A program made the position numbers and the translations under genes. DNA of 57,238 nt from Candidatus Endobugula sertula (GTDB lineage: Bacteria; Pseudomonadota; Gammaproteobacteria; Pseudomonadales; Cellvibrionaceae): assembly GCA_001723645.1 (NCBI GenBank), contig MDLC01000015.1, positions 1-57,238 of the forward strand, written 5' to 3'. The notes below the pieces were generated by a model. It was not told the DNA's origin. It made no database searches and saw only the letters and a list, made by a program, of their open reading frames with translations. How positions within the stretch are numbered: the stretch's first letter is position 1; the number at the start of each line of letters is the position of its first letter. This document shows, one piece after another, positions 3,889 to 52,979 of this stretch.

Positions 3889-5148
3889 CTATACCATATT
3901 GAAATCATATTTGAATTTATTAAATGAAAGCATATTCAGCAGATCGGAGGACGATAGCAGTTTCTTTTTTTTATAGATGGTGTTTTTAAGGTAATCTGGA
4001 AAGGGTATCTTCCCGACTTCCGCCCATTGAATACTGCCTGCATGGTCAACCCAAGAGCTTGCCAATTTTTTATTGTCATTGTGTAAACAGTACGGGATAT
4101 CTAAGTAACCTTTTTTAAAAGACAACTCTATCGCGCTGCCTATATCAGATGATGTATTCAATACGGCGCTAACAATTGATCTTGCCTGCTGAAAAATAAT
4201 TTCACTATTCCAATGAATTTTAGACTCTTCAACAAAACACTTCTTATTTTCTGCATTTGAAGCCCACTCTATGGCCATGACATTATCTTGTATTGATGGA
4301 ATACCATGCGCTTCTGATGCAGTTTTTACAATTAATCGAGGTATACCTGCCCGCTTTGCAATCCATGTACTATCCTCAATAATGGATTTTGCACCTGACT
4401 CTGTTGCAGGGAACATCCCCATAAATGTATACATAACTATATGCCAAGTAGTGGGCTGCAAAAATTCTTCTGCTAGTAACTGTAACGCAGCTAGAGCTCC
4501 TAAATCCTGCTCCAAATTTGACCCTTGCGCATAACTCAATGAAACTGAGGACACTCCATTGGCCTGCATAAACATGCATTCCAAAACTGTTATGGCAACA
4601 AGCATTGATGGAGGGCATAACTGACCAAGTAAACAACCGCCAAAAGACTCGATATGCAGAGGACGCGTACTTGTTGAGTTCTCACCGAATAACTGACAGC
4701 TTTCCGCCCAAGCTTTAACACTTGCTTTCAATGGCTCCCTACCATAAGGCATACAATATGATATTGGTCCTCCTTCAGTTGCATCTAAACCCATTTCTAA
4801 AATAGATTTAAAAATTTCTATTGGCTTTGCACAACCATGCCGAACCTGTATAGAAAAATCAGAATCAAAAATACCGTCAATAAGCGAGGCATTTTCATTT
4901 TTTTCAAAAGAAACTATGGGATAACCATTCAACTCTTTTTTCATTTCTACTGCTTCTTTTGCTGTAGAAAATTTTAACTGCCTTGTAAAGCTATCTATGG
5001 TTATAGTTCCTACGGTAGAGAACCCACAATGCTTAACTGCCAATAAGCCTGTCCTCATTTGCTCCGGCGATGAAAAAACCATCCTCGGCTGAAGCAAAAG
5101 GTGACCCTTCTCAATAGCCGCAGTTATAAAGTTATGAAAACTACTCAT
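3889..5148 (-). CDS. Methylaspartate (glutamate) mutase E-subunit-like protein
   Basis: Colinear blocks recalled from clostridial GlmE/MutE: QPRMV.., TIDSFTRQ, LNGYPIV, RHGCAKP, EGGPISYCMPYG, CPPSM, FMGMFP..ESGA, LIVKTASEAHGIPS. Confidence 0.75.
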   Translation of the reverse strand: MSSFHNFITAAIEKGHLLLQPRMVFSSPEQMRTGLLAVKHCGFSTVGTITIDSFTRQLKFSTAKEAVEMKKELNGYPIVSFEKNENASLIDGIFDSDFSIQVRHGCAKPIEIFKSILEMGLDATEGGPISYCMPYGREPLKASVKAWAESCQLFGENSTSTRPLHIESFGGCLLGQLCPPSMLVAITVLECMFMQANGVSSVSLSYAQGSNLEQDLGALAALQLLAEEFLQPTTWHIVMYTFMGMFPATESGAKSIIEDSTWIAKRAGIPRLIVKTASEAHGIPSIQDNVMAIEWASNAENKKCFVEESKIHWNSEIIFQQARSIVSAVLNTSSDIGSAIELSFKKGYLDIPYCLHNDNKKLASSWVDHAGSIQWAEVGKIPFPDYLKNTIYKKKKLLSSSDLLNMLSFNKFKYDFNMV

Positions 5149-5604
5149 TTGGTCAAGTCTCTTTTACTGAAGCATTCGTAAACGGGCTAATCCAGACAGT
5201 GCTTAATTCAGAATTCTTATTTTCTGATCACTACTAAAGCGATAAGCAGTTTTTTGGCGCAAAAATAATTTCTTTATGGTATAGCGCTATCAAGTAGTAA
5301 TCTTGCATTATTCTATTCCTTTTCGCTCAGGCGAAATTTGCTTGCTGTATCGATAAACCTTATTTGATATTTTATACCACACATACCAAAACATTCAGTC
5401 AACTATACTGTGAGCACTTGGATTCAAACTGTTATAGATCTTATCTTCTTTGGATAACAGCCAATTTCTACAAGCACTCTTAGCTAAAATATTCTAAATA
5501 CTGTACTCTGAAAATACTTTAATGTCTTCCACCTAAACCATGCTTTTATAAACTTAGAGCAGCAGAGCGCATTATAAACAGCCCCCCAATCGTACGATTG
5601 TTAA

Positions 5605-36964: not shown

Positions 36965-37145
36965 ACAGGAAAGTATCCCAAGAATGCCGCTGTCATAATG
37001 GCCTTGAACCGTGAAGTTCAAGTGGTGGTCTCTGGCAAGCATTAGGCTTTCCGTAGTACGGACATGCACACCAACAAGCACGAGAAACCTCCGGAAGTTG
37101 TAATATCGGCTCAAGGACGATGACTGGCAAACACCTCAGGACTCA
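36965..37145 (-). ncRNA. ssrS: 6S RNA
   Basis: The minus strand contains blocks matching remembered E. coli 6S RNA: CCTTGAGCCGATATT, GTTGGTGTGCATG, GGAAAGCCTAA and CTTGAAC..GGTTCAAGG. The termini are complementary. The conserved zapA-ssrS-ygfA synteny holds. Ends are approximate. Confidence 0.85.
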
Positions 37146-39440: not shown

Positions 39441-40397
39441 CTATACGTTTATGCAATACCATTGAGGTGTTTTAATCGCCTGTAAATATCGCTTCGACTG
39501 CTTATCCCTTTGTAGAAACATGGGTGATTCATTCGTCACTTCAAAACCAAACTGTTTCGGTAAGCTGGTATACATTGACTTTGGCGGCAAGTCATAAATT
39601 TTTTTAATCTTTCGTCCTGTATCAAAGGTATGATAATAAATGATAGAAATTCCCAGTTCATTGCGAATAAAACGAATGGCTGCCGCTAATGATAATTCAG
39701 CCCAAAGCGTTTTATAAGGTTTTAGAATGACCTCTGCATATTCTTTAATATCTCCATATTCACAATGAATGCCATTAATCACATCGCCGGGTTTTGCCGT
39801 GTTTTCCTTGGAGAGATGTTTGTTTACGTGCTCCAGATCTCTATTGACGTCGCGTAACCAATCATTTTGCACCTCCTCAATTAATGCTTCCCCAGTAGAT
39901 AAATCTGCATCGATTCTTACCCATGACAAGGTTTTACGATAGCCCCTTCTAATAGGGTGACCTCTAAACTCAAATGGACCGTAGTTATCTGAAGGCTTTA
40001 ATAAGCGGTGATACTCCTGATTGTGCTTATTATCAAAATTAATTTGCAACACCAAATTCTGCTGATTTCTCGAAGTCTGGTCGTAGTCTCTGTCACCCTC
40101 CCCCCAGCGATCCAATGTTAGAGTAAAGGCCAGCGTGCCTTCATTCCAGTAAAGTGACACATCATCCTTGGTCAACATACCGTTACCACAACGTTTAGTA
40201 ATATTTTTCACTATAGGCTTGGTGGAAAAGCGTTGTAAAGGCGGCTTGTTTAACTCGCGTACTTGTAAGCTTTGCCTTTTGTTGTTTTCCATATACCAAT
40301 TAATCATATCTAAACAATAGCGGTCTTTAAGATAATAAAAGACTCTTCTTTCGTCACCTAAGCAATCGAGTATTTCGTCTAATTCTTTCTGTTTCAT
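39441..40397 (-). CDS. Uncharacterised protein, paralog A of the rtcB-prfH-linked gene
   Basis: 318 aa. Colinear with ORF 41581..42474: [104 protein letters not shown]. Confidence 0.7.
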   Translation of the reverse strand: MKQKELDEILDCLGDERRVFYYLKDRYCLDMINWYMENNKRQSLQVRELNKPPLQRFSTKPIVKNITKRCGNGMLTKDDVSLYWNEGTLAFTLTLDRWGEGDRDYDQTSRNQQNLVLQINFDNKHNQEYHRLLKPSDNYGPFEFRGHPIRRGYRKTLSWVRIDADLSTGEALIEEVQNDWLRDVNRDLEHVNKHLSKENTAKPGDVINGIHCEYGDIKEYAEVILKPYKTLWAELSLAAAIRFIRNELGISIIYYHTFDTGRKIKKIYDLPPKSMYTSLPKQFGFEVTNESPMFLQRDKQSKRYLQAIKTPQWYCINV

Positions 40398-40677
40398 AAT
40401 AGTACTTCTGATAGGAACATCTGATTAACCGATAAATATTTACTGAAGTATTTGTAAATGGGTCAATCTAGATAGTATTACATTCAATGTTTCACATTTT
40501 CTTATCGCTACTCAAGCGATAAGTCATTTTAGACAATTCTCACCTTTTAAACTGATAACAAATAGCGTTTAGTCAGTACTCAATTGGCTAAAGAGCACTT
40601 CATAAATACCGCCTGCGCATTTTTAGCCAAATTGTTATAGCGCACTTTCCGATATCCAAATGGTGACGTTCCATTAA

Positions 40678-41580: not shown

Positions 41581-42474
41581 CTAAATTGATAGGCGATACC
41601 ATTGGGTATTTTTAATAGCCTTTAGATATCTCCTAGCTTTTTTGTGTTGTTCTAAAAACCTAGGACTTTGACTGGTTACTTCAAATCCAAATTGCTTTGG
41701 TAACTTTGTGTACATAGATTTGGGCAGCAATCCGTAGATTTTCTTAATTTTTCGCCCTGTGTCAAAAGTATGATAATAGATGGTCGAAATACCCAGCTTG
41801 TTGCGGATAAATTGAATAGCCGCTAGTAGTGAGAGTTCCGCCCATAATCTCTTATAAGGCTCTAATATGACTTCAGCATAGTGTTTAAATTCATTATACT
41901 CACAGTCAATACCATGGATAATATCGCCGGGTTTTACTGTGTTTTTCCCAGCATAGCACCTTGTAACACGCTGCATATCCCAGGTAACTCTACGGATCCA
42001 ATCATTTTGTACCTCTTCAATTAATGCTTCTCCTGTCGTAGGATCAAAATCTATTCTTACCCAAGATAATGTTTTGCGGTTATTTTGCCTAATAGGATGC
42101 CCTCTATATTCAAATGGGCCATAGCTATCATAAGGTTTTAGTAAACTATGGTAGTGTTGGTTATGTTCATTGCCAAAATTGATTTGTAAAACCAGATTTT
42201 GCTGATTTCTAGGTGTTTGATCATAACCTCTTTCGCTGTCACCCCACCGATCAAGTGTTAATGTAAAAGTTAATACATCATTGGGCCAGTAAGATTTAAG
42301 ATTATCTATTGGTAAATAACCATTGCCGCATCGTTTGATAATGTTTTTAACAATCGGTTTTGCGGCAAATAACTCTAAATAATAGCGATCCTTAAAATAA
42401 TGAAAGCCCCTTCTTTCATTACCTAAGCAATACAGTACATCCTCTAAATATTTACTCGTTAAAATCTCTACCAT
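41581..42474 (-). CDS. Uncharacterised protein, third gene of the rtcB-prfH operon (paralog B)
   Basis: 297 aa. The start overlaps the prfH stop by 23 nt. Shares long identical blocks with 39441..40397 but lacks about 25 aa near the N-terminus. Confidence 0.75.
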
Positions 42475-43135
42475 AAAAAGTACGTATAGGTTTACCCCTT
42501 TGCACTTCGTAGTGCTGTGACCATCGTGAACGTTCGAGTGATTTATTTTCTAAATCGTTTTGATTTGCCAGCAATAGTTGCAAACGCTCTAATGCGATTT
42601 GCTTATTTCTATGCTGGGAACGGTCTGATTCAACACGCACTTTTAAACCAGTTGTGCGATGAGTGATACGAACCGCACTATTGGTCTTATTGACATGTTG
42701 ACCACCTGGCCCTTTTGACCGCATAGTCTCCATATCGACTTCCTTCACTAATTCGTTGAACGTCTTCATACTATTACTAGGCATTGATAATGTCGCAATA
42801 CCCACGAACCAGTTGATGCGTTTATGCTTAGGTCGATAAGGGCTTTCACCTTGCCATTTAATAGTTCCTTGCCATTTATGAGCAAACCCATCAACCCCTT
42901 TGCCTTCTAAGCGGATCAATATCGACAAAAATGCATCAGGCTCAATCAATGTCTGATTTCGCAATAACTTATCAAATGCTAAGCTCTCAACGATTTCAGC
43001 AGACAGATTTTCTCTGTATGCTTCATCCAATAGAACTCGACTGAGCTGAGCAATAACCCAGCCGCATTCTTTAGGGCCTTGACCAGCCGTCAGTTGTAGC
43101 CATACAACTGACGATTTTTTATGCTTTGTTTCCAT
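42452..43135 (-). CDS. prfH: Peptide chain release factor H (PrfH)
   Basis: 227 aa. The RF-like GGQ domain reads [20 protein letters not shown] without a codon-recognition domain of RF1/2 size. Lies 2 nt downstream of rtcB, as in known rtcB2-prfH pairs. Confidence 0.88.
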
Positions 43136-43137
43136 AT

Positions 43138-44373
43138 TTATGTTCTCCGTGTTTTATAGGTGAGTAATGGTTTAAAGGTTGCAACGATATCAACCATACC
43201 GGCTTCCGCTAAGTCGCTCACCACCTGACTAATATTTTTGTAGGCTTGTGGGGCCTCTTCATAAAGTAGATCTCTTTGCTTACAAATAACACGGCTACCT
43301 AGTGAAGTTTTCTCTAAGTCTTTTACCTTAAAACGCTTTTCTAAGCGGCCTCGAGCATCACTGCGTTTCCATTTTCGGCCTGCACCATGTGCTAGAGAAA
43401 AACCTCCAAGAGCCAATGCACTTAGCTCATTAACTCTAGGTTTAACAAGATAACTTAAACTACCTCGAGATCCAGGTATCATTACTAAGCCCTTATTCGT
43501 TGGGCTTGCACCTTTACGGTGTATCCAATAACGTCTTTCTGAATCGATGTCTGACTTTGCGGCTGATTTTGCAGAAAGCCCCATTAGCTCAGTCTCAACA
43601 CTTGATAAAGCTTCAACCATATTGTGGGTGACATCGAACAAATAGCGTTGCTTTGTCTTTAACTGCTGACAAAAACGTTCTGCAATAAGTTCTCGATTTG
43701 CTTCAGCCCAACGGATAGCGTAATTGTGACGTTTTTGATACTGTTCATACTGATATTCATCTTGTATGGTTTCTAATGATTTTGAACCTAGGTTATCAAC
43801 ATGATCGCGAAGTATTTTTTGCCCTAAACCTCTAGAGCCGCTATGTACGAGTAAAAACACATGCTTTTTATCAATACCTAATCCATCAAATACATCACTA
43901 TCAATAATCTCATGAATCTGTTGCAATTCAGCAAAGTGATTATCGCCACCTATTGTTCCTAACTTGTGATGCTCTGTTAATGAAAAATCACCTTCAATTA
44001 TTAGACTGCGATCGCCCAACCATTCTTCCCTATTGCCATTCCATAGTTCATCAAGCCCAACAAGTTGTTTTTCCCATTTGTCTAATTTGACCTTTCTGGT
44101 CGGAATATCTAATTGCCATAAACCCATGCCACAACCAATATCACTACCCACCATATGGGGGTAGATACAGTTTTCCGTTACAAAAGCGGCGCCAATGGGT
44201 TGCCCTTTTCCTGGGTGTAGATCTGGCATACCAATACCGATACGCATACCCGGTAATTCCATTGTTTTTTTCAGCTGCGTAATGGCAGCGTCTTCTAACC
44301 AATTTTTGTCAGAGCTAATAATGCTCGTTCGACGATCCTCAGCTGTTTCGATATTTTTAAATAAAGTACTCAT
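43138..44373 (-). CDS. rtcB: RNA 3'-phosphate/5'-OH ligase RtcB (PrfH-associated type)
   Basis: [35 protein letters not shown] and HGAGR motifs. 411 aa. Confidence 0.93.
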
Positions 44374-44486
44374 ACAATTTACTTGTTCTATTTTTTCCTA
44401 TATGTCATCTTTCGGCGCAAGTTCGCCCCTCCTGAATCATACATTCAAGTTAAAAAATGACAGGCAATAAGTCTTAACAGTTAATA

Positions 44487-44612
44487 GCGGTGCAAGGATG
44501 CGCCGCCACTGGTCGACAGACCAGTGCGAACCCCTTAAAAACAAGGAGCTTCACATAGCTTCGCCAGTTTTTAAGGGGTGACAGTTAAATAGGTTAGGAT
44601 GACCTATTTAAC
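44487..44612 (-). ncRNA. Candidate structured RNA / leader: four consecutive hairpins upstream of rtcB-prfH
   Basis: Four stems on the plus strand: gcggtgca/tgcgccgc (44487-44506, 7 of 8 bp), cactggtc/gaccagtg (44507-44526), ccccttaaaaac/gtttttaagggg (44531-44578, 12 bp) and gttaaataggt/acctatttaac (44584-44612, 11 bp). No ORF and no U-tract. Strand is not determined from sequence. Confidence 0.35.
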
Positions 44613-44725
44613 TATATAATTAGTAACTGCAATAAATTTTAAATATGCAAAGCTAAACTAAAGCTTCAATAAAGAGCCAGAGATTAAAAATGTTTGTCTG
44701 AATGGATATAGCAGTAAGAAAAAAT

Positions 44726-44938
44726 TTAGCTATAAGAAGCTTGGCGCCCGCCTTCCGGTACCTTTGTTCGCATTTTATGGACTTGTGAATAAGCATATCC
44801 CTTAAATTTCGCCCAGCAGCCTTTATGCAAGAATAATTGTCTTTTCTCTCTTACCATTTCGCCAACCGCTGTACTGTATAAAACACAGTTTCGAGGTACA
44901 AATAAAGAATCGATAATATATTGTGTTTTACTACCCAT
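44726..44938 (-). CDS. Small basic hypothetical protein downstream of cca
   Basis: 70-aa ORF. No family recognised. Confidence 0.3.
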   Translation of the reverse strand: MGSKTQYIIDSLFVPRNCVLYSTAVGEMVREKRQLFLHKGCWAKFKGYAYSQVHKMRTKVPEGGRQASYS

Positions 44939-44978
44939 TGTCTTTCATCCTGTTGAGTACTATTCCTCTAAAGTCTTT

Positions 44979-46241
44979 CTATTGAGGAGCTATCTTATAC
45001 TGTGCCATATACCGCTTAATACTACCCAAACGTAACCGACGAATTTTCTCTGCTAATTTAAGGCCTTCATAGCCTTCACTTAGTAATGGCTTGATATTGG
45101 TATCTATAGCAACCTGGTTGTATTCGATTAACAATTGAGATTGAGGGTAATCTCTTTGCTCTAATCCTAAACGACCCCTAGCATCCGCTTCACAGGCTTG
45201 CGCAAAGTAACGTACACGTTCTGGTCGCCTGAACCCATCTAGTGCTTCCAATAGCTTTAATACCGATTTGGGACGCATTTCTAATAACTTATGACAACGT
45301 AAATGATGCTCTGACACTAGTTTTGCCAAGGTGCGAAAGTCTTTCGGTACTTTATAACACTCACATACTTTCTCAACTAAAGGTACACCTTTAATTTCAT
45401 GGCGAATATGACGAGGCCACTCTTCTTCAGGGGTAAGACCTTTACCCAAATCATGCATTAGTGCAGCCCAGGTCACGATTAGATCATCAAAACGCTCTCT
45501 GGCAATGTCCACGACCATCATCACATGATCACCCGTATCCACTTCTGGGTGATGCTGTGGGGGTTGCGGAACACCAAATAAACAGTCTAATTCTGGCATT
45601 AAAACCTCCAATGCACCACAGGCACGGAGCACTCGGAAAAACTCACTGGGCCGAGGCTCGGTTAATGCTCGAGACATTTCCTTCCAAACACGTTCCGGTG
45701 TTAATTCAGCAAGCTCGCCATTGTTAACCAAGTGCTTCATTAATTCTAATGTATTGGGATGCACTTGAAAATCTAACGTGGCATAACGTGCAGCAAAACG
45801 GGCTACTCTTAATACTCTCAATGGGTCATCAGAGAATGATTCTGAAACATGTCGTAAGACTTTATTATTTAAATCGGCTCTACCGTTAAACGGATCAACA
45901 TATTTACCTTCTAATGTCAGCGCAATGGCATTAATCGTAAGGTCTCTCCGAGATAGATCTTCTTCAAGTGTAACCTCGGGGCTAAAATCACAAACAAAGC
46001 CAGTGTGCCCCTTACCTGATTTTCTTTCAGTACGAGCGAGAGCATATTCATCCTTAGTTTCTGGGTGTAAAAAACAGGGAAAGTCGTTACCTATTTGTTG
46101 ATAGCCTTGCTCTATAAGCATTTCTGGAGTCGCACCGATGACTACCCAGTCATGATCTGCAACTGGGCGACCTAATAGCTTATCGCGTACCGCTCCACCG
46201 ACTAAATAAGCCTGAACACCAGTATTCTGTATATTTTCCAT
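44979..46241 (-). CDS. cca: Multifunctional CCA-adding enzyme (class II nucleotidyltransferase with HD domain)
   Basis: YLVGGAVRDKLLGRP..D.DWVV, ARTERK and RDLTINA, plus a C-terminal HD-domain region (LMHDLGK). 420 aa, like E. coli Cca. Confidence 0.92.
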   Translation of the reverse strand: MENIQNTGVQAYLVGGAVRDKLLGRPVADHDWVVIGATPEMLIEQGYQQIGNDFPCFLHPETKDEYALARTERKSGKGHTGFVCDFSPEVTLEEDLSRRDLTINAIALTLEGKYVDPFNGRADLNNKVLRHVSESFSDDPLRVLRVARFAARYATLDFQVHPNTLELMKHLVNNGELAELTPERVWKEMSRALTEPRPSEFFRVLRACGALEVLMPELDCLFGVPQPPQHHPEVDTGDHVMMVVDIARERFDDLIVTWAALMHDLGKGLTPEEEWPRHIRHEIKGVPLVEKVCECYKVPKDFRTLAKLVSEHHLRCHKLLEMRPKSVLKLLEALDGFRRPERVRYFAQACEADARGRLGLEQRDYPQSQLLIEYNQVAIDTNIKPLLSEGYEGLKLAEKIRRLRLGSIKRYMAQYKIAPQ

Positions 46242-48541: not shown

Positions 48542-48618
48542 TGGTGTTTTTGGCAGGATTCGAACCTGCTACCCATCGATTATGAATCGATTGCTCTACC
48601 CGTATGAGCTACAAAAAC
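48542..48618 (-). tRNA. tRNA with CAT anticodon (Met, or Ile if lysidine-modified), CCA encoded
   Basis: Hand fold: GTTTTTG TA GCTC ATACGGGTA GAGC A ATCGA TTCATAA TCGAT GGGTA GCAGG TTCGAAT CCTGC CAAAAAC A CCA. Confidence 0.85.
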
Positions 48619-48984
48619 CTATGCGTTGGAGGCATAGTTGTTTAGCGGGCTAGCGAATCGGTACACAGGACATTAAAAATGGCTGTGCCAGCCTGGCATA
48701 CGGAACCAGAGACACTGTTTCGTTAACTTGCGCATAAACATCGGTATGGAGTTAGACGCCAAAAAAGCGCCAAACTCCAAATACTTATCATCGAATATCG
48801 GAAACAACACTAAGGTGTTTGCCTTTTTCCTTATCGTACTCGGCAATTTCCATTTCTCCGTCAATTGGCGCTATTGTTACCAAATGATCAATTCGTGAAT
48901 ACATCTCTCCATGGTAGGCTTTTAGCTCGCCTTTTCCATTTTCATATCCTCATTGCTTATGAACTAAAGCCAATACAGTTTGGT

Positions 48985-49536
48985 TTAGCCACTCTTCCAT
49001 TTTCGTTGACTAGAAAATTGTTTAGTCAGATAGTCCATTTGATCGGCAATAATATGCCGATTAGTTAAATACAAATATTCAAAAGGATTCGGCGTAAACG
49101 GAACCGCTAATAAAAGCATATTTGCTTGTTCCGGTGTACGATTGCCTTTTGCATGATTGCAGCGCTTGCAGGCGGCCACGACATTTGTCCAACTATCGGC
49201 TCCACCTTGAGCACGCGGTACCACATGGTCACGGGTTAGTTCCTGTGCAAAAAATATTTGGCCGCAATATAAGCACACATAATTATCTCGACGAAATAAC
49301 ATAGCATTGCTAAATGAACGGACCTTCATACTTTTTCCGTGACCTTTAGTCGCAATCACTGGAGAAATATCAAGCATAGAACGTTCGCCATCGCGGTTGT
49401 AACCGCCCCGCATTAAGGCACCTTGTTCACCCATTTCCCACAGCACAAGTTTTTTGCTGTAAAGGGTTGTAGCAGCCTCCACTAATAGCCAATGCATCGG
49501 CATACCAGAGGGATTTAGGCGTAGTACTTTTTTCAT
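48985..49536 (-). CDS. HNH endonuclease
   Basis: CLYCG...TRDHVVPRAQGG..SW.NVVAACKRCNHAKGNRTP is a classic HNH-Cys4 motif. 183 aa. Confidence 0.88.
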   Translation of the reverse strand: MKKVLRLNPSGMPMHWLLVEAATTLYSKKLVLWEMGEQGALMRGGYNRDGERSMLDISPVIATKGHGKSMKVRSFSNAMLFRRDNYVCLYCGQIFFAQELTRDHVVPRAQGGADSWTNVVAACKRCNHAKGNRTPEQANMLLLAVPFTPNPFEYLYLTNRHIIADQMDYLTKQFSSQRKWKSG

Positions 49537-49578
49537 TACCTTGCGCCAAAAAATAAATCCATATGTGAATACACCAGC

Positions 49579-49875
49579 CTAATAGTATTTAATAAAGTTC
49601 ATACCATCAGCCGAGCGATAACCATTTGTTTCTAACAAATGGATCATCGCTTGTCGTTTTTGTAATTGCCTTTCTGTAACAACTACATAAAGCGGCATCA
49701 ATTGTTGATGGAGTGCCCATGTCAACAATTGGTGCCCATTTTCGCGACCAACTAAATAGTGATCCACATATAGCTGGGTTACACTATTTTTAAGCAATTG
49801 CTTTTTTGCTTTTCTTGCATCGTCACAGAAAACATCTGCGAAACGGTTTTGATTTTTGCTAACAGATAAACGCAT
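49579..49875 (-). CDS. Hypothetical protein inside the tRNA array
   Basis: 98-aa ORF, 33 nt downstream of tRNA-His. No family recognised. Confidence 0.45.
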   Translation of the reverse strand: MRLSVSKNQNRFADVFCDDARKAKKQLLKNSVTQLYVDHYLVGRENGHQLLTWALHQQLMPLYVVVTERQLQKRQAMIHLLETNGYRSADGMNFIKYY

Positions 49876-49908
49876 AATCCCTCCTGTGAGCTAGTGAGAA
49901 TATTTAGG

Positions 49909-49980
49909 GGTGACCGATGGGACTCGAACCCATATATACTTGAGCCACATTCAAGCGCATTACCGATCTGCCACGGCCAC
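49909..49980 (-). tRNA. tRNA-His (GTG), no encoded CCA (CCT) and no G-1
   Basis: Hand fold: GTGGCCG TG GCAG ATCGGTA ATGC G CTTGA ATGTGGC TCAAG TATAT ATGGG TTCGAGT CCCAT CGGTCAC C. Followed by CCT, and position -1 is T. Confidence 0.75.
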
Positions 49981-50011
49981 ACCTAAATATTCTGGGTAAT
50001 AAGAAATAATT

Positions 50012-50086
50012 TGGTCCGCCCGGTAGGATTTGAACCCACACCTGTCGGCTTAAAAGGCCGATGCGCTACCATTACGCCACGAACGG
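50012..50086 (-). tRNA. tRNA-Lys (TTT), CCA encoded
   Basis: Hand fold: CCGTTCG TG GCGT AATGGTA GCGC A TCGGC CTTTTAA GCCGA CAGGT GTGGG TTCAAAT CCTAC CGGGCGG A CCA. Confidence 0.85.
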
Positions 50087-50091
50087 AAAAT

Positions 50092-50170
50092 TGGCACCTG
50101 ACACAGGACTCGAACCTGCATCTCCCCGCTTCGTAGGCGGGTGCTCTAAATCCAATTGAGCTAATCAGGC
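50092..50170 (-). tRNA. tRNA-Arg (ACG), CCA encoded
   Basis: Hand fold: GCCTGAT TA GCTC AATTGGATTTA GAGC A CCCGC CTACGAA GCGGG GAGAT GCAGG TTCGAGT CCTGT GTCAGGT G CCA. Confidence 0.85.
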
Positions 50171-50176
50171 AAAATT

Positions 50177-50250
50177 TGGAGCCCAATACAGGACTCGAAC
50201 CTGTCTCTACTGCTTACAAGGCAGTTGCACAGCCGCTATGCCAATCGGGC
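50177..50250 (-). tRNA. tRNA-Thr (TGT), CCA encoded
   Basis: Hand fold: GCCCGAT TG GCAT AGCGGCT GTGC A ACTGC CTTGTAA GCAGT AGAG ACAGG TTCGAGT CCTGT ATTGGGC T CCA. Confidence 0.85.
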
Positions 50251-50290
50251 AAGTTAAGAAATTTTGTGAAATAAAAGACTGGAATCCTTT

Positions 50291-51487
50291 CTAGCCTTTT
50301 ACGTTGACGATTTGACGAAGCGTATGAACAACGTCAACAAGATCAGTTTGGTTATCCATAACATCATCAATTGGCTTATACGCCATGGGAATCTCATCGA
50401 TTACACCTTTGTCTTTACGGCATTCAATCCCCTCTGTTGCAGATACAAGATCACTTACAGAATAGGTTTTTGCAGCCGCAGTTCGACTTAGGCGACGTCC
50501 AGCGCCGTGAGAGCAAGAACAGAACGATTCTGATTCACCTTTACCACGAACAATAAAACTTTTATCGCCCATAGACCCAGGAATAATACCCAAATCATCT
50601 TTTCTTGCGCGGATAGCGCCTTTACGTGTAACCCATACGTTTTTACCAAAATGGTTTTCCTTTTCCACATAGTTATGATGACAATTGATGGCTTCTTGAG
50701 TGACCGCAAACGCTGGAAGATGTTTACGTAGCTCCATCATCACTGCATTCATCATATGTGTACGATTCAATGCAGCATAATCTTGCCCCCAAGATACTGC
50801 TTCGATGTAATCATCGTAATATTCTGATCCTTCAGATAGATAAGCCAAATCTTTATCGGGCAAATGGATCATCCATTTTTCCATTTCACGTTTCGCGATC
50901 TCGATAAAATGCATTCCAATTTTATTACCGATACCACGGCTTCCTGAATGCAGCATAATCCATACGTCTTGATTTTCATCCAAACACAACTCGATAAAGT
51001 GATTCCCTGAACCTAGCGTACCTAACTGCTTTGCAAAGGCATCATACTTAATACGTTTACTTATTTGAGGATGCTTCTCGAAGATAGTACTTAAACGCAT
51101 TGAAATATCATGGCCACCTGCAATTTTAGGGTCACGATGTTTTCCGCCTGCCCCCAAAGGCACAACAGATTCAATACGACTGCGAATAGCTTTCAAATTA
51201 TCAGGCAGATCTTTTGCCTTTAGCGATAGACGCACGGCATTCATACCACAACCAATATCCACGCCTACTGCAGCAGGGATAATCGCTTTATCGGTCGCGA
51301 TTACTGAACCCACAGTCGCTCCTTTACCCAAATGAACATCTGGCATTGCTGCTACATGTTTATAGACAAAGGGTAAATTCGCTACTCGGCTTAATTGTGC
51401 CTGTGTGTTGTAATCAATATCATCTGTCCAGATTTTTACAGGCACACGCTGATCTTTATGCGTTGCCAATACTTTTTTAATGGTCAT
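50291..51487 (-). CDS. rtcB: RNA ligase RtcB embedded in the tRNA array
   Basis: MPDVHLGKG, GVDIGCGM, GSGNHFIELC, HSGSRGIGN, HNY and HGAGR motifs. 398 aa. Lies 30 nt downstream of an oversized tRNA-like gene and 40 nt upstream of tRNA-Thr. Confidence 0.95.
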   Translation of the reverse strand: MTIKKVLATHKDQRVPVKIWTDDIDYNTQAQLSRVANLPFVYKHVAAMPDVHLGKGATVGSVIATDKAIIPAAVGVDIGCGMNAVRLSLKAKDLPDNLKAIRSRIESVVPLGAGGKHRDPKIAGGHDISMRLSTIFEKHPQISKRIKYDAFAKQLGTLGSGNHFIELCLDENQDVWIMLHSGSRGIGNKIGMHFIEIAKREMEKWMIHLPDKDLAYLSEGSEYYDDYIEAVSWGQDYAALNRTHMMNAVMMELRKHLPAFAVTQEAINCHHNYVEKENHFGKNVWVTRKGAIRARKDDLGIIPGSMGDKSFIVRGKGESESFCSCSHGAGRRLSRTAAAKTYSVSDLVSATEGIECRKDKGVIDEIPMAYKPIDDVMDNQTDLVDVVHTLRQIVNVKG

Positions 51488-51517
51488 AATTGCCTCCTTT
51501 AGTTATTTTATAATGAC

Positions 51518-51658
51518 TGGTTGGAGGTATAGGAATAACCTAAGCGCGTCCTGCGCTTAGCCTTTCAGATGCAAAGCAGTTCAAAATGCTCCCGGCATTT
51601 TGTCGAACCCATCTCGCCGGGGCAAAAACCCGGTGCTCAGCCACTAAGCCAACCTCCA
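51518..51658 (-). tRNA. Oversized (141 nt) tRNA-like gene with a 74-nt T-loop. The 7-nt anticodon loop reads TTTTTGC (UUU). CCA encoded.
   Basis: Hand fold: TGGAGGT TG GCT TAGTGGCTG AGC A CCGGG TTTTTGC CCCGG CGAG ATGGG [TTCGA CAAAATGC-CGGGA-GCATTTTG AACTGCTTTGCATCTGAAAGG CTAAGCGC-AGGAC-GCGCTTAG GTTATT] CCTAT ACCTCCA A CCA. Acceptor pairs 7/7 and T-stem 5/5. Confidence 0.6.
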
Positions 51659-51668
51659 GTTAAGTAAT

Positions 51669-51818
51669 TGGAGCGATGTATGGGAATCGAACCCATTTCC
51701 TCTGCTTGGACTGCTTTGCAGGAGCAAAAGCAGGACATCATGTAGTGGTGGTTGCGAAGCAATTGTGTATAGGGATATACACAACAACGCAGGTACCTCA
51801 CCATTCGGTTAACATCGC
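51669..51818 (-). tRNA. Oversized (150 nt) tRNA-like gene with an ~80-90 nt insertion in the anticodon arm. Anticodon undetermined. CCA encoded.
   Basis: 5' part: GCGATGT TA ACC GAATGGTGA GGT A CCTGC. 3' part: GCAGA GGAA ATGGG TTCGATT CCCAT ACATCGC T CCA. Acceptor pairs 7/7. The insert holds the hairpins TTGTGTATA-TCCC-TATACACAA and CTGCTTTTGC-TCCT-GCAAAGCAG. Confidence 0.55.
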
Positions 51819-51824
51819 ATAAAT

Positions 51825-51902
51825 TGGTCTGGGTGGTAGGGTTTGAACCTACGACCTTTGGGTTCCAAACCCAACACGCTAACCAAACTGCGCTACACCC
51901 AG
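51825..51902 (-). tRNA. tRNA-Pro (TGG), CCA encoded
   Basis: Hand fold: CTGGGTG TA GCGC AGTTTGGTTA GCGT G TTGGG TTTGGAA CCCAA AGGTC GTAGG TTCAAAC CCTAC CACCCAG A CCA. Confidence 0.9.
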
Positions 51903-51910
51903 AATAAATT

Positions 51911-52052
51911 TGGCGGTTCATACCACTTCCCATAAATAGAGAGGGAACCGGTGATCTCTCGGCTTATTCACATGAATGTAATGTATGCCGATTTTGCAGG
52001 AGCAAAAATCGGTGACAACCGAGCGCATTAAACCTGACTATGCTAATGAACC
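51911..52052 (-). tRNA. Oversized (142 nt) tRNA-Asp(GTC)-like gene with a 49-nt insertion after the anticodon loop and an expanded T-loop. CCA encoded.
   Basis: Hand fold: GGTTCAT TA GCAT AGTCAGGTTTA ATGC G CTCGG TTGTCAC [CGATTTTTGC-TCCT-GCAAAATCGG CATACATTACATTCATGTGAATAAG] CCGAG AGATC ACCGG [TTCCC TCTCTATTTAT GGGAA] GTGGT ATGAACC G CCA. Acceptor pairs 7/7. Confidence 0.6.
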
Positions 52053-52057
52053 TTAAT

Positions 52058-52133
52058 TGGTGGAGACCGTGGGAATCGAACCCACCACACAGTGCTTGCA
52101 AAGCATCGTCGCCCCCTTGATACATGGGCCCCC
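52058..52133 (-). tRNA. tRNA-Ala (TGC) with G3:U70, a poorly paired D-arm, CCA encoded
   Basis: Hand fold: GGGGGCC CA TGTATCAAGGGGGCGAC GATGC TTTGCAA GCACT GTGTG GTGGG TTCGATT CCCAC GGTCTCC A CCA. The G3-T70 wobble is present. No convincing D-stem. Confidence 0.7.
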
Positions 52134-52138
52134 AATTT

Positions 52139-52293
52139 TGGAGTGCGAGGCTGGGTGAAAGAAGTGTTGTTAGCAAAGCACTGCTTTGTACTTCTTGAAC
52201 GCCCAAAACTTATAATTTTTGGCCGGCCCGCTTGCGGCAAACCAGCGTATACGGAGGTTGCAGCTCCGCGCATCGTCTCTCTGCCACTCGCAC
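52139..52293 (-). tRNA. Oversized (155 nt) tRNA-Cys(GCA)-like gene with an 87-nt T-loop. U73, CCA encoded.
   Basis: Hand fold: GTGCGAG TG GCAG AGAGACG ATGC G CGGAG CTGCAAC CTCCG TATAC GCTGG [87 nt, including AAGAAGT..ACTTCTT and AAAGC-AGT-GCTTT hairpins] CCAGC CTCGCAC T CCA. Acceptor, anticodon and T stems all pair perfectly. Confidence 0.6.
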
Positions 52294-52310
52294 AAAATAG
52301 TTATTCAGAT

Positions 52311-52384
52311 TGGCAACAGCGTCAGGATTCGAACCTGGAATACCGGAGTCAAAGTCCAGTGTGTTACCGTTACACCACGCTGCT
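52311..52384 (-). tRNA. tRNA-Gln (TTG), G73, CCA encoded
   Basis: Hand fold: AGCAGCG TG GTGT AACGGTA ACAC A CTGGA CTTTGAC TCCGG TATT CCAGG TTCGAAT CCTGA CGCTGTT G CCA. One T-stem mismatch. Confidence 0.8.
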
Positions 52385-52392
52385 ATATTTTT

Positions 52393-52481
52393 TGGTCGTG
52401 AGGAGCGGGTTTGAACTCTCGCAGCACTCTTGTTACTGTGCGGATTAGCAATCCGCTGCCTTACCACTCGGCCACATTTCC
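52393..52481 (-). tRNA. tRNA-Ser(GCT)-like, probably defective (acceptor and T stems do not pair)
   Basis: Type II D-arm GCCGAGTGGTAAGGC, anticodon arm GCGGA TTGCTAA TCCGC, and a long variable arm. The 5' strand GGAAATG pairs at only 3 of 7 positions with CCTCACG, and the T-stem GAGAG/CCGCT is poor. Confidence 0.5.
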
Positions 52482-52487
52482 AATAAT

Positions 52488-52629
52488 TGGTTGCGGTGGC
52501 TGGAATAACCAAAGTACTTTCTGTACTTTGCTCTGCGAGTGCTTCGCTGCTCAAAATGCTCCAGGCATTTTGTCGAACCAACAAGTTCGGGCATATGAAA
52601 CCCGCGAGTAGCCATAGCTCAACACCGCT
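52488..52629 (-). tRNA. Oversized (142 nt) initiator-like tRNA (CAT) with the same 74-nt T-loop architecture as 51518..51658. CCA encoded.
   Basis: Hand fold: AGCGGTG TT GAGC TATGGCT A CTC G CGGGT TTCATAT GCCCG AACTT GTTGG [TTCGA CAAAATGC-CTGGA-GCATTTTG AGCAGCGAAGCACTCGCAGAG CAAAGTAC-AGAAA-GTACTTTG GTTATT] CCAGC CACCGCA A CCA. There is a 1:72 A-A mismatch, and the 3' end CCGCAACCA resembles remembered E. coli tRNA-fMet. Confidence 0.6.
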
Positions 52630-52640
52630 TCAAATAGTAG

Positions 52641-52715
52641 TAGGCCAAGGCGGATTCGAACCGCTCCTTATCCCGCTTATGAGGCGGGTGCATTCACCGA
52701 TTATGCTATTGGCCT
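52641..52715 (-). tRNA. tRNA with CAT anticodon (Met/Ile2 type), no CCA encoded
   Basis: Hand fold: AGGCCAA TA GCAT AATCGGTGA ATGC A CCCGC CTCATAA GCGGG ATAAGG AGCGG TTCGAAT CCGCC TTGGCCT A. Followed by CTA. Confidence 0.75.
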
Positions 52716-52725
52716 AATTTAAAAT

Positions 52726-52809
52726 TGGTGTAGGCAGATGGAGTTGAACCACCAAAGCTTTCGCGACCGGGTTACAACCGGCTAGAGTCACCACGTCTCT
52801 TCTGTGTAC
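52726..52809 (-). tRNA. tRNA-Tyr (GTA), type II, with two central acceptor mismatches. CCA encoded.
   Basis: Hand fold: GTACACA GA AGAG ACGTGGTGA CTCT A GCCGG TTGTAAC CCGGT CGCGAAAGCTTT GGTGG TTCAACT CCATC TGCCTAC A CCA. An alternative 5' strand GCAGGTA (to 52813) pairs 6/7 but leaves a 6-nt connector. Confidence 0.65.
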
Positions 52810-52818
52810 CTGCATAAT

Positions 52819-52895
52819 TGGCTCCGGCAGTTGGGATCGAACCAACGAACTCCTGATTAACAGTCAGGCGCATTACCACTCTGCTTCACACCGGA
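52819..52895 (-). tRNA. tRNA-Asn (GTT), CCA encoded
   Basis: Hand fold: TCCGGTG TGAAGCAGAGTGGTAATGC G CCTGA CTGTTAA TCAGG AGTTC GTTGG TTCGATC CCAAC TGCCGGA G CCA. The D-stem is shifted (GCA/TGC). Confidence 0.8.
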
Positions 52896-52902
52896 ATAAA
52901 AT

Positions 52903-52979
52903 TGGTACAGTGAGCTGGACTCGAACCAGCACTCTCCTGATCTTCAATCAAGCGCTCTACCAATTGGAGCTATCACTGC
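52903..52979 (-). tRNA. tRNA-Phe (GAA), CCA encoded
   Basis: Hand fold: GCAGTGA TA GCTC CAATTGGTA GAGC G CTTGA TTGAAGA TCAGG AGAGT GCTGG TTCGAGT CCAGC TCACTGT A CCA. Confidence 0.9.

What the first reader, a model, noticed from the sequence alone, without database searches (positions are those of the whole stretch)
44487..44612. Four back-to-back hairpins between the cca operon and rtcB-prfH
**Observed in the sequence.**
- 126 nt with no ORF fold into four adjacent stems of 8, 8, 12 and 11 bp.
- The 12-bp stem ccccttaaaaac/gtttttaagggg encloses a 24-nt loop that contains aaggagc.
- None of the stems is followed by a U-tract, so they do not look like simple terminators.
- On the minus strand the region lies about 115 nt upstream of the rtcB start.

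**Background and inference.**
- In enterics, rtcBA neighbours structured Y-RNA-like genes. That is established knowledge, but no Ro/Rsr gene is present here.
- This element may be a regulatory leader, a sensor RNA or a substrate-mimic RNA.
Basis: partly seen in the sequence, partly recalled or inferred. Interest (0 to 1): 0.55.

Follow-up and report, generated by a model that had tools for sequence, protein, structure and literature searches.

The report
Lineage-specific hairpin expansion in rtcB-prfH leader
The four hairpins are real, but they are a one-lineage expansion of a variable stem-loop in the leader of a ribosome-repair operon whose own promoter and sensor ORF this symbiont has deleted, so they are probably a tolerated add-on and not a conserved regulatory RNA.

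Summary
The window is a contig of Candidatus Endobugula sertula. The four adjacent stems exist as described. They measure 8, 8, 13 and 12 bp, and the fold z-score is -8 to -11. No other cluster like it occurs in the 57 kb window.

The hairpins lie on the rtcB strand, inside the leader of the rtcB-prfH operon. In 19 related marine gammaproteobacterial loci this leader has a sigma-70 promoter, a strong Shine-Dalgarno site, a conserved 17-34-codon ORF (19-23 codons in the closest relatives) and 190-345 nt of RNA. That layout matches the PA5471.1 leader-peptide attenuator of the Pseudomonas aeruginosa armZ (rtcB-like)-prfH operon.

E. sertula has deleted two RlaP genes, the promoter, the Shine-Dalgarno site and all but the last four codons of the leader ORF. 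Both flanks of the hairpins align with the leader of the closest relative (RtcB 90% identical). The 133-138 nt holding the hairpins correspond to only a 6-nt loop there.

In eight homologous leaders the same position is a helix (H0). Its interior ranges from a 6-nt loop to one, two or, only here, four hairpins.

There is no Rfam match, no terminator, no convincing promoter and no second copy in the sequence I could search. Most likely this is a dispensable expansion segment. A cis role in RNA stability, or membership of a repeat family, remains untested.

The parts
44487..44506 (-). Hairpin A'. Sequence GCGGCGCA-UCCU-UGCACCGC on the rtcB strand. 8 bp with one A.C mismatch (G.U on the + strand).
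44507..44526 (-). Hairpin B'. Sequence CACUGGUC-UGUC-GACCAGUG. 8 bp perfect, directly abutting A'.
44530..44579 (-). Hairpin C'. 13-bp perfect stem ACCCCUUAAAAAC/GUUUUUAAGGGGU. The 24-nt loop has a 6-bp inner stem at 44545-44562.
44583..44613 (-). Hairpin D'. 12-bp perfect AT-rich stem AGUUAAAUAGGU/ACCUAUUUAACU with a 7-nt loop.
44486..44623 (-). Block with no counterpart in the closest relative, L147. BLAST leaves 44486-44623 unmatched against 6 nt in L147. MAFFT places a single 132-column gap that leaves 133 nt (about 44486-44618) without a counterpart. Hairpins A'-C' are 55% G+C, against 25-34% in the flanks.
44624..44630 (-). 5' arm (GCAGUUA) of the conserved closing helix H0 that encloses the four hairpins.
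44477..44483 (-). 3' arm (UAACUGU) of helix H0. Homologous to UUAGCUGU in L147.
44631..44738 (-). Conserved 5' part of what remains of the leader. It covers the last four codons and stop of the ancestral leader ORF (TCT TAT AGC TAA, 44726-44737), the stop-codon hairpin TATAGC...GCTATA (44707-44734) and the downstream conserved stretch. 79% identical to L147.
44374..44476 (-). Conserved proximal leader domain. It holds the long-range helix UGUCAUUUUUU (44452-44462) / GAAAGAUGACA (44403-44413), the hairpin CUUGAAU/AUUCAGG (44431-44449), and the block GGGGCG..UGCGCC.
44726..44938 (-). 70-codon fusion ORF. It joins RlaP (PF10127) residues 1-9 and 118-176 (88% identical to the 300-aa RlaP of L082) in frame to the last four codons of the leader ORF. 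It marks the deletion that removed the rest of RlaP1, RlaP2, the leader promoter, the Shine-Dalgarno site and the body of the leader ORF.
43138..44373 (-). rtcB (411 aa, PF01139). 100% identical to the Ca. Endobugula sertula protein. dN/dS 0.13 against L147.
42452..43135 (-). prfH (227 aa, RF-1 domain). dN/dS 0.14 against L147.
44979..46241 (-). cca (PolyA_pol head, RNA-binding and HD domains). It is the upstream gene from which transcription would now have to read through.

Best explanation
The four hairpins are the E. sertula-specific, expanded interior of a variable stem-loop domain. I call the closing helix H0. It lies in the 5' leader of the rtcB-prfH ribosome-repair operon, on the rtcB strand.

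In relatives this leader has a promoter, a strongly initiated 17-34-codon ORF (19-23 codons in the closest relatives) and 190-345 nt of RNA. By analogy with PA5471.1 of P. aeruginosa armZ-prfH, I infer that it senses ribosome stalling.

E. sertula deleted about 1.3 kb, plus a further 0.3 kb inside RlaP1. This removed RlaP sequence, the leader promoter, the Shine-Dalgarno site and 15 of about 19 leader codons. The sensor is therefore gone, and rtcB-prfH can only be transcribed by read-through from cca or from a weak internal promoter.

As RNA, the four stems would fold locally and independently inside H0, leaving the conserved flanking domains intact. The sister lineage keeps an intact operon and leader with only a 6-nt loop at this site. 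The hairpins are therefore dispensable for the leader's function.

I take them to be a tolerated expansion segment with no dedicated regulatory role. It was either newly inserted or elaborated from one or two ancestral inner hairpins. At most it acts passively as a nuclease barrier or stability element in the read-through transcript.

Shown: homology of the flanks, absence of the block in relatives, the deletion, and the variable H0 interior. Inferred: the attenuator function of the intact leader, transcription of the block, and its lack of function.
For: - Identity: RtcB is 100% identical to the Ca. E. sertula protein.
- Homology of the flanks: an nhmmer profile built from five relatives' leaders hits window 44738-44372 (-) at E = 9e-8, but only with profile positions 137-397 of 398. 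The promoter, Shine-Dalgarno site and ORF body are missing, and posterior probability is low across the hairpins.
- Closest relative, L147 (RtcB 90%): L147 1670-3685 matches window 44485-42470 at 88.8% identity, and L147 1553-1663 matches window 44739-44624 at 79%. MAFFT gives one 132-column gap.
- L147 is intact: promoter TTGCGC-17-TATAGT, Shine-Dalgarno site, ORF MLYFIDQVALLGLSVSSYS, and a 215-nt leader against 352 nt here.
- Deletion scar: the 70-aa ORF is RlaP residues 1-9 plus 118-176, followed by ASYS and the stop codon.
- H0 is predicted at the same position in 8 of 8 leaders. Its interior is a 6-nt loop in L147, simple hairpins in L081 and L082, one inner hairpin in L144 and L148, two in L145 and L146, and four here.
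- Leader ORFs occur in all 19 clade relatives examined. A strict scan (ATG start, strong Shine-Dalgarno motif) finds one in 52 of 103 prfH-linked rtcB loci, against 5 of 103 on the antisense control.
- Pseudomonas loci carry the 13-aa type. The PA5471.1 attenuation mechanism is described in PMC12057347 and PMC13041342.
- rtcB and prfH are still under purifying selection, with dN/dS 0.13-0.14.
- Negative searches: no terminator and no convincing promoter, no Rfam family, and no further copy in the window or in 1.25 Mb of related loci.
Against: - The stems are almost perfect: one wobble or mismatch in 41 stem pairs. Yet synonymous sites have diverged by dS of about 0.4 since the split from L147. 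The block is therefore either very recent or under selection.
- Hairpins A'-C' form a G+C-rich island (55%) in an AT-rich leader. That fits foreign or mobile DNA, or selection for stability, as well as it fits neutral expansion.
- The direction of change is unresolved: gain here or loss in L147. The RtcB tree is a polytomy. B' and A' sit where the two inner hairpins of L145 and L146 sit, which could mean a conserved two-hairpin module.
- Only 57 kb of the E. sertula genome could be searched for other copies.
- There are no expression data.
Confidence: 0.6

Rival explanations
1. The block is a functional cis-acting RNA module that was kept or acquired after the operon lost its own promoter. Four stable hairpins in the cca-to-rtcB read-through transcript would act as a barrier to 3'-5' exonucleases, a 5' stabiliser after processing, or a pause or roadblock element. 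They would set how much rtcB-prfH mRNA is made.
For: - The stems are near-perfect despite dS of about 0.4 to the sister lineage.
- rtcB and prfH are still under purifying selection, so they need to be expressed.
- The block keeps helix H0 and both conserved flanking domains intact.
- Inner hairpins recur at this site in L144, L145, L146 and L148.
Against: - The sister lineage has an intact leader and operon with no inner hairpin.
- None of the stems has a U-tract.
- All three stem imperfections are A.C mismatches on the rtcB strand. That is not what selection on this strand's RNA predicts.
- There is no covariation evidence, because the only second sample, L084, is 100% identical.
Confidence: 0.2
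2. The block is a copy of a small non-autonomous mobile or repeated palindromic element (REP-, MITE- or IS200/IS605-derived) that landed in the H0 loop. It would be present elsewhere in the E. sertula genome.
For: - It is a discrete block of 133-138 nt, absent from the orthologous site in the closest relative.
- There is a compositional jump to 55% G+C.
- The perfect stems suggest recent arrival.
- The locus is otherwise being remodelled. L147 has an IS3-family insertion in RlaP2, and this window has a deletion at the same locus.
Against: - There is no second copy in the 57 kb window or in 148 loci totalling 1.25 Mb, and none in viral contigs.
- The four hairpins differ from one another, so this is not an array of one REP unit.
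- There are no terminal inverted repeats.
- The insertion lies between two pre-existing ATTA repeats, so no target-site duplication can be shown.
- The 17-nt flanking direct repeat (13 of 17 matching) is at the level expected by chance for AT-rich sequence (my own estimate).
Confidence: 0.12
3. The block is an independent small RNA. Candidates are a Y-RNA- or YrlA-like RNA, a mimic of a tRNA minihelix or rRNA substrate for the neighbouring Cca, RlaP or RtcB enzymes, or a + strand antisense RNA.
For: - The + strand folds better, at -67.1 against -59.9 kcal/mol. All three imperfections are G.U on the + strand.
- Hairpin D has a 12-bp stem and a 7-nt loop, the dimensions of a tRNA acceptor/T-arm minihelix (sequence).
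- RNA-repair genes are adjacent.
Against: - No Rfam family matches at E <= 10.
- ARAGORN makes no call here.
- There is no promoter on either strand above chance and no terminator.
- The D loop does not match the T-loop consensus.
- Relatives encoding the same enzymes lack the block.
- Three transitions falling on one strand by chance has a probability of about 0.25.
Confidence: 0.04
4. The block works at the DNA level, as a set of palindromic operator sites for one or more regulators that took over control of rtcB-prfH.
For: Perfect palindromes look the same on both strands. B is a 20-bp near-perfect palindrome of the size typical of an operator.
Against: - The four palindromes are unrelated to one another.
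- No regulator gene is adjacent.
- The block lies 114-240 nt upstream of the ATG, with no promoter around it.
- Relatives lack it.
Confidence: 0.04

Closest known systems
PA5471.1 leader-peptide attenuator of the Pseudomonas aeruginosa armZ (PA5471, RtcB-like)-PA5470 (prfH) operon (reviewed in PMC12057347; PMC13041342)
   Same: - It occupies the same genomic position, directly upstream of and co-oriented with an rtcB-like gene followed by prfH.
- In relatives of this window it has the same parts: a constitutive-looking promoter, a strong Shine-Dalgarno site, a short leader ORF and a structured untranslated stretch.
- Pseudomonas loci in my set carry the 13-codon ORF, MQQLITLCRSRLA-like.
- The remaining E. 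sertula leader is homologous to those of its clade.
   Different: - The clade's leader ORF is longer, mostly 17-23 codons and up to 34. Its leader is also longer, 190-345 nt.
- I found no canonical terminator hairpin with a U-tract.
- E. sertula lacks the promoter, the Shine-Dalgarno site and 15 of about 19 codons.
- The four hairpins have no equivalent in the Pseudomonas leader.
Expansion segments or variable stem-loops of structured RNAs (lineage-specific helices inserted into a conserved helix, as in rRNA, RNase P RNA or riboswitch variable stems)
   Same: A conserved closing helix (H0) holds an interior that varies from a 6-nt loop to four hairpins among homologous leaders. The flanking domains stay conserved.
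   Different: The host RNA here is an mRNA leader of unproven structure. I have no covariation statistics for H0, because its arms cannot be aligned in register.
REP/BIME and MITE-type intergenic palindromic repeats
   Same: It is a cluster of stable hairpins in an intergenic region of an operon. It lacks U-tracts and is absent from the orthologous site in a close relative.
   Different: - The four hairpins are not copies of one unit.
- It has no terminal inverted repeats and no target-site duplication.
- No second copy turned up in the sequence I could search.
Bacterial Y RNAs (YrlA/YrlB) encoded next to rsr and rtcBA in Salmonella
   Same: Only that a structured non-coding stretch is adjacent to an rtcB gene.
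   Different: - No Rfam match.
- No long terminal stem with a Ro-binding bulge and no tRNA-like domain.
- This rtcB is the prfH-coupled type, not the rtcBA/rsr type.

Membership tests
PA5471.1-type leader-peptide attenuator of rtcB-like-prfH operons | Lies immediately upstream of, and co-oriented with, an rtcB-like gene followed by prfH | tested here: met
   rtcB is at 43138-44373 and prfH at 42452-43135, both on the - strand. The leader is 44374-44738.
PA5471.1-type leader-peptide attenuator of rtcB-like-prfH operons | Own promoter, plus a short leader ORF with a Shine-Dalgarno site | tested here: not met
   In E. sertula only the last four codons and the stop survive. Profile positions 1-136 are absent. 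The feature is present in L147 and in the 18 other clade relatives.
PA5471.1-type leader-peptide attenuator of rtcB-like-prfH operons | Sequence homology of the leader RNA to intact members | tested here: met
   nhmmer E = 9e-8. The flanks are 79-89% identical to L147.
PA5471.1-type leader-peptide attenuator of rtcB-like-prfH operons | Alternative pairings ending in an intrinsic terminator (segments 3:4) | tested here: inconclusive
   There is no hairpin with a U-tract on the rtcB strand. RNAalifold recovers only the stop-codon hairpin and a small proximal hairpin. In L147 the ORF can pair with a downstream segment, but this rests on a single-sequence fold.
PA5471.1-type leader-peptide attenuator of rtcB-like-prfH operons | Induction of the downstream genes by ribosome stalling | not testable with these tools
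   This needs reporter or RNA measurements.
Y RNA / YrlA-like RNA | Match to the Rfam covariance models; a terminal stem with a Ro-binding site and a tRNA-like module | tested here: not met
   No Rfam match at E <= 10 in 44300-45000. None in the whole window at gathering score. ARAGORN finds nothing here.
REP/BIME or MITE repeated palindromic elements | Many copies in the same genome | tested here: inconclusive
   No copy in the 57 kb window or in 1.25 Mb of related loci. The rest of the E. sertula genome could not be searched.
REP/BIME or MITE repeated palindromic elements | Terminal inverted repeats with a target-site duplication (MITE), or an array of one repeated palindromic unit (REP/BIME) | tested here: not met
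   The ends, TATAGTT... and ...CACCGCT, are not inverted repeats. The insertion lies between pre-existing ATTA repeats. The four hairpins are unrelated in sequence.
Intrinsic (Rho-independent) terminator | G+C-rich hairpin immediately followed by a U-tract | tested here: not met
   The only match is the inner stem of C on the + strand, and its 'tail' is the 3' arm of stem C.

The most novel reading that the evidence does not exclude
The four-hairpin cassette is not junk. One reading is that it is a recently acquired, selected RNA module that gives the promoter-less rtcB-prfH genes a new mode of post-transcriptional control within the cca read-through transcript. It could be a processing or stability switch, or a decoy for the neighbouring RNA-repair enzymes. 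The other reading is that it is the first seen copy of an undescribed family of multi-hairpin mobile cassettes in Endobugula genomes.
Probability: 0.1. Interest if true: 0.5.

Novelty: new member of a known kind. Interest (0 to 1): 0.3.

Why it matters
For the finding itself the value is mainly corrective. A striking, statistically solid hairpin cluster next to RNA-repair genes turns out to be a lineage-specific elaboration of a variable loop in a leader that has lost its sensor. It should not be catalogued as a conserved riboregulator or a Y-RNA analogue.

The comparative work has a by-product of wider interest. Short, strongly initiated leader ORFs precede prfH-linked rtcB genes in about half of 103 loci examined, from Pseudomonas, Pseudoalteromonas, Kangiellaceae, some enterics and Cellvibrionales.

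This suggests that the PA5471.1 ribosome-stalling attenuator may not be a peculiarity of MexXY regulation in P. aeruginosa. It may be the ancestral control of the ribosome-rescue and repair operon, in which stalled ribosomes induce the factors that rescue and religate them. That idea can be tested directly with reporters.

Tried and rejected
1. Rfam at gathering score on the whole window, and at E <= 10 on 44300-45000. Nothing at the locus. The leaders of L147, L082 and L026 also gave nothing.
2. ARAGORN found no tRNA-like gene here.
3. Copies of the hairpins. The repeat finder on the window and blastn-short against 148 loci plus the window gave only chance matches of 13-16 nt or less. Exact-pattern scans of viral contigs for hairpins C and D gave 0 hits.
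4. My first reading was that hairpin D is the homologue of the relatives' stop-codon hairpin, and that 'GCTATATCC' is a promoter remnant. This was wrong. Alignments A3 and A4 show that TCTTATAGCTAA...GCTATA at 44707-44737 is the stop-codon hairpin itself, fused to the RlaP remnant.
5. My by-eye match of the H0 5' arm to 'GCAGTTAGC' in L082 was also wrong. It was replaced by the anchored folds.
6. Target-site duplication. The 17-nt direct repeat flanking A-C is at chance level for AT-rich sequence. The junction with L147 lies between pre-existing ATTA repeats.
7. An 11-nt identity (AGCTCCTTGTT) between the loop of C and the L147 leader hints at local duplication but is not decisive.
8. Strand asymmetry (G.U on the + strand at three positions) has a chance probability of about 0.25, so it was not used.
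9. RNAalifold on seven leaders found no covariation, because the middle of the leader cannot be aligned.
P0002 was not on record. The close relative was recovered through its cluster member P0121.
11. I considered a protein search with translations of the block. I did not run it, because no frame is open across the block and a negative result would say nothing.

Full report
**Observation.** The sequence at 44487-44612 does form four adjacent stem-loops.
- A (44487-44506): 8 bp. One position is G.U on the + strand and A.C on the - strand.
- B (44507-44526): 8 bp perfect.
- C (44530-44579): 13 bp perfect. Its 24-nt loop contains AAGGAGC and has a 6-bp inner stem.
- D (44583-44613): 12 bp perfect, with a 7-nt loop.

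The 126 nt fold at -67.1 kcal/mol on the + strand (z = -10.7) and -59.9 on the - strand (z = -8.1). No shuffle did as well. A scan of the whole window for perfect stems of at least 8 bp found no other place where such stems are adjacent. Two of the window's five hairpins with perfect stems of 11 bp or more are here. None of the stems is followed by a U-tract, and promoter-like matches are at chance level. The block ends 114 nt upstream of the rtcB start codon. Only ORFs of 22-35 aa overlap it, and no frame is open across it.

**Organism and genes.** The RtcB encoded at 43138-44373 (-) is 100% identical to the protein of Candidatus Endobugula sertula, the bryostatin symbiont of Bugula. The window is that 57,238-bp contig. 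The genes on the - strand run as follows:
- a Band7 gene;
- a metallophosphoesterase gene;
- cca (44979-46241);
- a 70-codon ORF (44726-44938);
- the hairpins;
- rtcB;
- prfH (42452-43135);
- an unknown 297-aa gene.

rtcB and prfH are under purifying selection relative to the closest relative, with dN/dS 0.13 and 0.14 and dS about 0.4.

**What relatives have upstream of rtcB.** I collected 148 loci carrying rtcB homologues, about 105 of them the prfH-linked type. Nineteen belong to the Cellvibrionales-like clade, with RtcB at least 54% identical to this one. Where enough upstream sequence was available, these show:
- a sigma-70 promoter, such as TTGCAT-17-TATAGT followed by GCGC;
- a short 5' UTR and a strong Shine-Dalgarno site (CAGGAGGCTCAAT before the ATG);
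- a conserved 17-34-codon ORF, 19-23 codons in the closest relatives. Examples are MLYLNHQVALLSLSVSFYYS, MFYTNTTFTMLGFTAETYFS and MLYFIDQVALLGLSVSSYS;
- 190-345 nt of leader before rtcB.

Across all loci, 52 of 103 have an ORF of 10-36 codons with a strong Shine-Dalgarno site in sense orientation within 450 nt upstream. The antisense control gives 5 of 103. The Pseudomonas loci carry a 13-codon ORF, MQQLITLCRSRLA-like.

This is the architecture described for P. aeruginosa. There the 13-codon leader PA5471.1 controls armZ (an RtcB-like gene) and PA5470 (prfH) by transcription attenuation that depends on ribosome stalling (PMC12057347; PMC13041342). No Rfam family covers these leaders.

**E. sertula has lost the sensor half of its leader.** The 70-codon ORF is a remnant of an RlaP (PF10127) nucleotidyltransferase gene. 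Residues 1-9 match the N-terminus of the 300-aa RlaP of L082. Residues 8-66 are 88% identical to its residues 118-176. Its last four codons and stop, TCT TAT AGC TAA, are the end of the leader ORF of the relatives. The conserved stop-codon hairpin TATAGC...GCTATA follows them.

Relatives such as L082 and L144 have the order cca, RlaP, RlaP, promoter, leader ORF, leader, rtcB, prfH. So E. sertula deleted about 1.3 kb, plus about 0.3 kb inside RlaP1. That removed the second RlaP gene, the leader promoter, the Shine-Dalgarno site and 15 of about 19 leader codons.

A profile built from five relatives' leaders confirms this. It hits window 44738-44372 (-) at E = 9e-8, but only with profile positions 137-397 of 398. 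Confidence is high at both flanks and low across the hairpins.

**The hairpins have no counterpart in the closest relative.** The RtcB that is 90% identical (P0002) was not retrievable directly. Its cluster member P0121 led to locus L147, a Cellvibrionaceae MAG. L147 has the intact promoter, Shine-Dalgarno site, leader ORF and a 215-nt leader.
- BLASTN aligns L147 1670-3685 to window 44485-42470 at 88.8% identity.
- It aligns L147 1553-1663 to window 44739-44624 at 79% identity.
- Window 44486-44623 is left opposite 6 nt of L147.
- MAFFT gives a single 132-column gap that leaves 133 nt, about 44486-44618.

These limits are almost exactly the finding's coordinates. In L147 the site is the 6-nt loop of a small hairpin, GCAGUUAA-GAUUAA-UUAGCUGU. 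In E. sertula the same arms, GCAGUUA at 44624-44630 and UAACUGU at 44477-44483, enclose the four hairpins.

**A variable domain, not a conserved motif.** I folded the stretch between two conserved anchors (TTTGCRTA... and ATYGCC) in eight homologous leaders. Each gives a closing helix (H0) at the same position. Its interior differs:

| Leader | Interior of H0 | Segment length |
|---|---|---|
| L147 | 6-nt loop | 31 nt |
| L081, L082 | simple hairpins | 28-30 nt |
| L144, L148 | one inner hairpin | 62-65 nt |
| L145, L146 | two inner hairpins | 71-73 nt |
| E. sertula | four hairpins | 163 nt |

Hairpins B' and A' occupy the same position, just before the H0 3' arm, as the two hairpins of L145 and L146. 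B' shares the core TGGTC/GACCA with L145, so they may be homologous. That would make C' and D' the E. sertula-specific additions, and the L147 state a loss. The RtcB tree is a polytomy of {E. sertula, L147}, {L144-146} and {L081, L082}, so the direction of change cannot be settled.

Either way, the interior of H0 is free to vary. An intact operon and leader, L147, does without inner hairpins.

Among 104 upstream regions, the E. sertula block ranks fifth for folding energy after correcting for G+C. The four regions above it are not members of this clade, and at least two are single long hairpins.

**Other properties.**
- Hairpins A'-C' are 55% G+C, against 25-34% in the flanks and 29% in D'.
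- There is no second copy of any hairpin in the window, in 1.25 Mb of related loci, or in viral contigs for hairpins C and D.
- There are no terminal inverted repeats and no demonstrable target-site duplication.
- A second sample, Logan SRR4020083, is identical to the window, so there is no within-species variation to exploit.
- The three stem imperfections are G.U on the + strand and A.C on the rtcB strand. By chance this has a probability of about 0.25. If it means anything, it points to relaxed constraint on the leader RNA.

**Interpretation.** The block belongs to the rtcB-prfH leader. It is a lineage-specific expansion of a variable stem-loop domain, sitting in a leader whose ribosome-sensing part has been deleted. 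It cannot be part of the ancestral switch, and by comparison with L147 it is dispensable.

My best estimate is a tolerated expansion segment with no dedicated function, which at most acts as a passive nuclease barrier in a cca-to-rtcB read-through transcript (confidence about 0.6). The near-perfect stems, set against a dS of about 0.4, mean the block is either very recent or selected. I therefore keep two rivals alive: a functional cis-acting stability or processing element (0.2) and a copy of an unsampled repeat or mobile family (0.12). Independent sRNA, Y-RNA-like, substrate-mimic or operator readings have no support (about 0.04 each).

**Comparison with known systems.** The closest known system is the PA5471.1 attenuator. 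The position and the homology of the leader are met. The promoter and leader ORF are not met in E. sertula. The terminator is inconclusive. In behaviour, the block resembles an expansion segment nested in a conserved helix. It is not a REP/BIME, a MITE, an intrinsic terminator or a Y RNA by the features I could test.

Noticed in passing
Loci L001-L148, 100-450 nt upstream of rtcB (e.g. L147:1508-1566, L082:4707-4769, L026 about -132): Short leader ORFs with strong Shine-Dalgarno sites precede prfH-linked rtcB in 52 of 103 loci, against 5 of 103 on the antisense control. They fall into related families: ..ITLCRSRLA (Pseudomonas, Leminorella, Pragia, Sideroxyarcus), ..FCRPL.. (Kangiellaceae, Moraxellaceae), ..SFAGLVR (Pseudoalteromonas), and ..LLGFAA.T.FS or MLYLN..ALLGLSV..YS (Cellvibrionales). 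The PA5471.1-type control may therefore be a general feature of rtcB-prfH operons and not specific to MexXY regulation.
   Followed up: partly
window 44726-44938 (-): The 70-codon ORF is an in-frame fusion of RlaP (PF10127) residues 1-9 and 118-176 to the last four codons of the rtcB leader ORF. It is the scar of a deletion of about 1.6 kb in total that removed the rest of RlaP1, RlaP2 and the leader promoter and ORF. Ribosomes translating it would still terminate at the ancestral leader stop codon, inside the conserved stop-codon hairpin.
   Followed up: yes
window 43088-43113 (inside prfH, codons about 8-16): A perfect 11-bp hairpin (CGTCAGTTGTA-TGGC-TACAACTGACG) lies just after the rtcB stop and prfH start. 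It is one of the five longest perfect stems in the window. L147 has a weaker version (8 pairs including one G.U, then a mismatch). More distant relatives lack it. It may bear on translational coupling of rtcB and prfH.
   Followed up: partly
window 41581-42474 and 39441-40397 (-): Two paralogous genes about 72% identical in nucleotide sequence (297 and 318 aa, no Pfam match). In relatives a 315-318-aa homologue, usually preceded by a 47-67-aa ORF, always follows prfH. This looks like a conserved third member of the operon, of unknown function.
   Followed up: no
L082, L144, L145 (and window 44979-46241): The neighbourhood cca, RlaP, (RlaP), leader, rtcB, prfH, unknown 318-aa gene is conserved. 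In P. aeruginosa, loss of cca increases ribosome stalling on PA5471.1 (PMC13041342). The genetic linkage of cca to this leader may therefore be functional.
   Followed up: no
L147:55-1226: In the closest relative, an IS3-family element (HTH_Tnp_1 plus rve) has replaced most of RlaP2, just upstream of the intact leader promoter. The same RNA-repair locus is therefore eroding independently in both Endobugula-like lineages.
   Followed up: partly
window 36971-37145 (-): A 6S RNA (SsrS) gene. Rfam RF00013, 87 bits, full length.
   Followed up: no
window 48542-52979 (-): A cluster of 12 tRNA genes, interrupted by a 398-aa ORF at 50291-51487 that I did not identify. ARAGORN and Rfam disagree on three calls. 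Ala 52058-52132 and Tyr 52726-52809 are called by ARAGORN only. A 30.5-bit Rfam tRNA match at 52406-52481 is not called by ARAGORN.
   Followed up: no
window 5163-5253 and 40439-40530: Two stretches 77-80% identical to each other. Each lies beside a gene on the - strand (3889-5148 and 39441-40397). The window's first 6 kb is also lower in G+C, 35-37% against about 41%.
   Followed up: no
window 44436-44463 (-); L147:1693-1725: A promoter-like site sits inside the conserved proximal leader: CTGTCA-16-TATGAT here and CTGTCA-16-TATAAT in L147. Its count is at chance level in the scan. It would give rtcB a start downstream of the hairpins.
   Followed up: no
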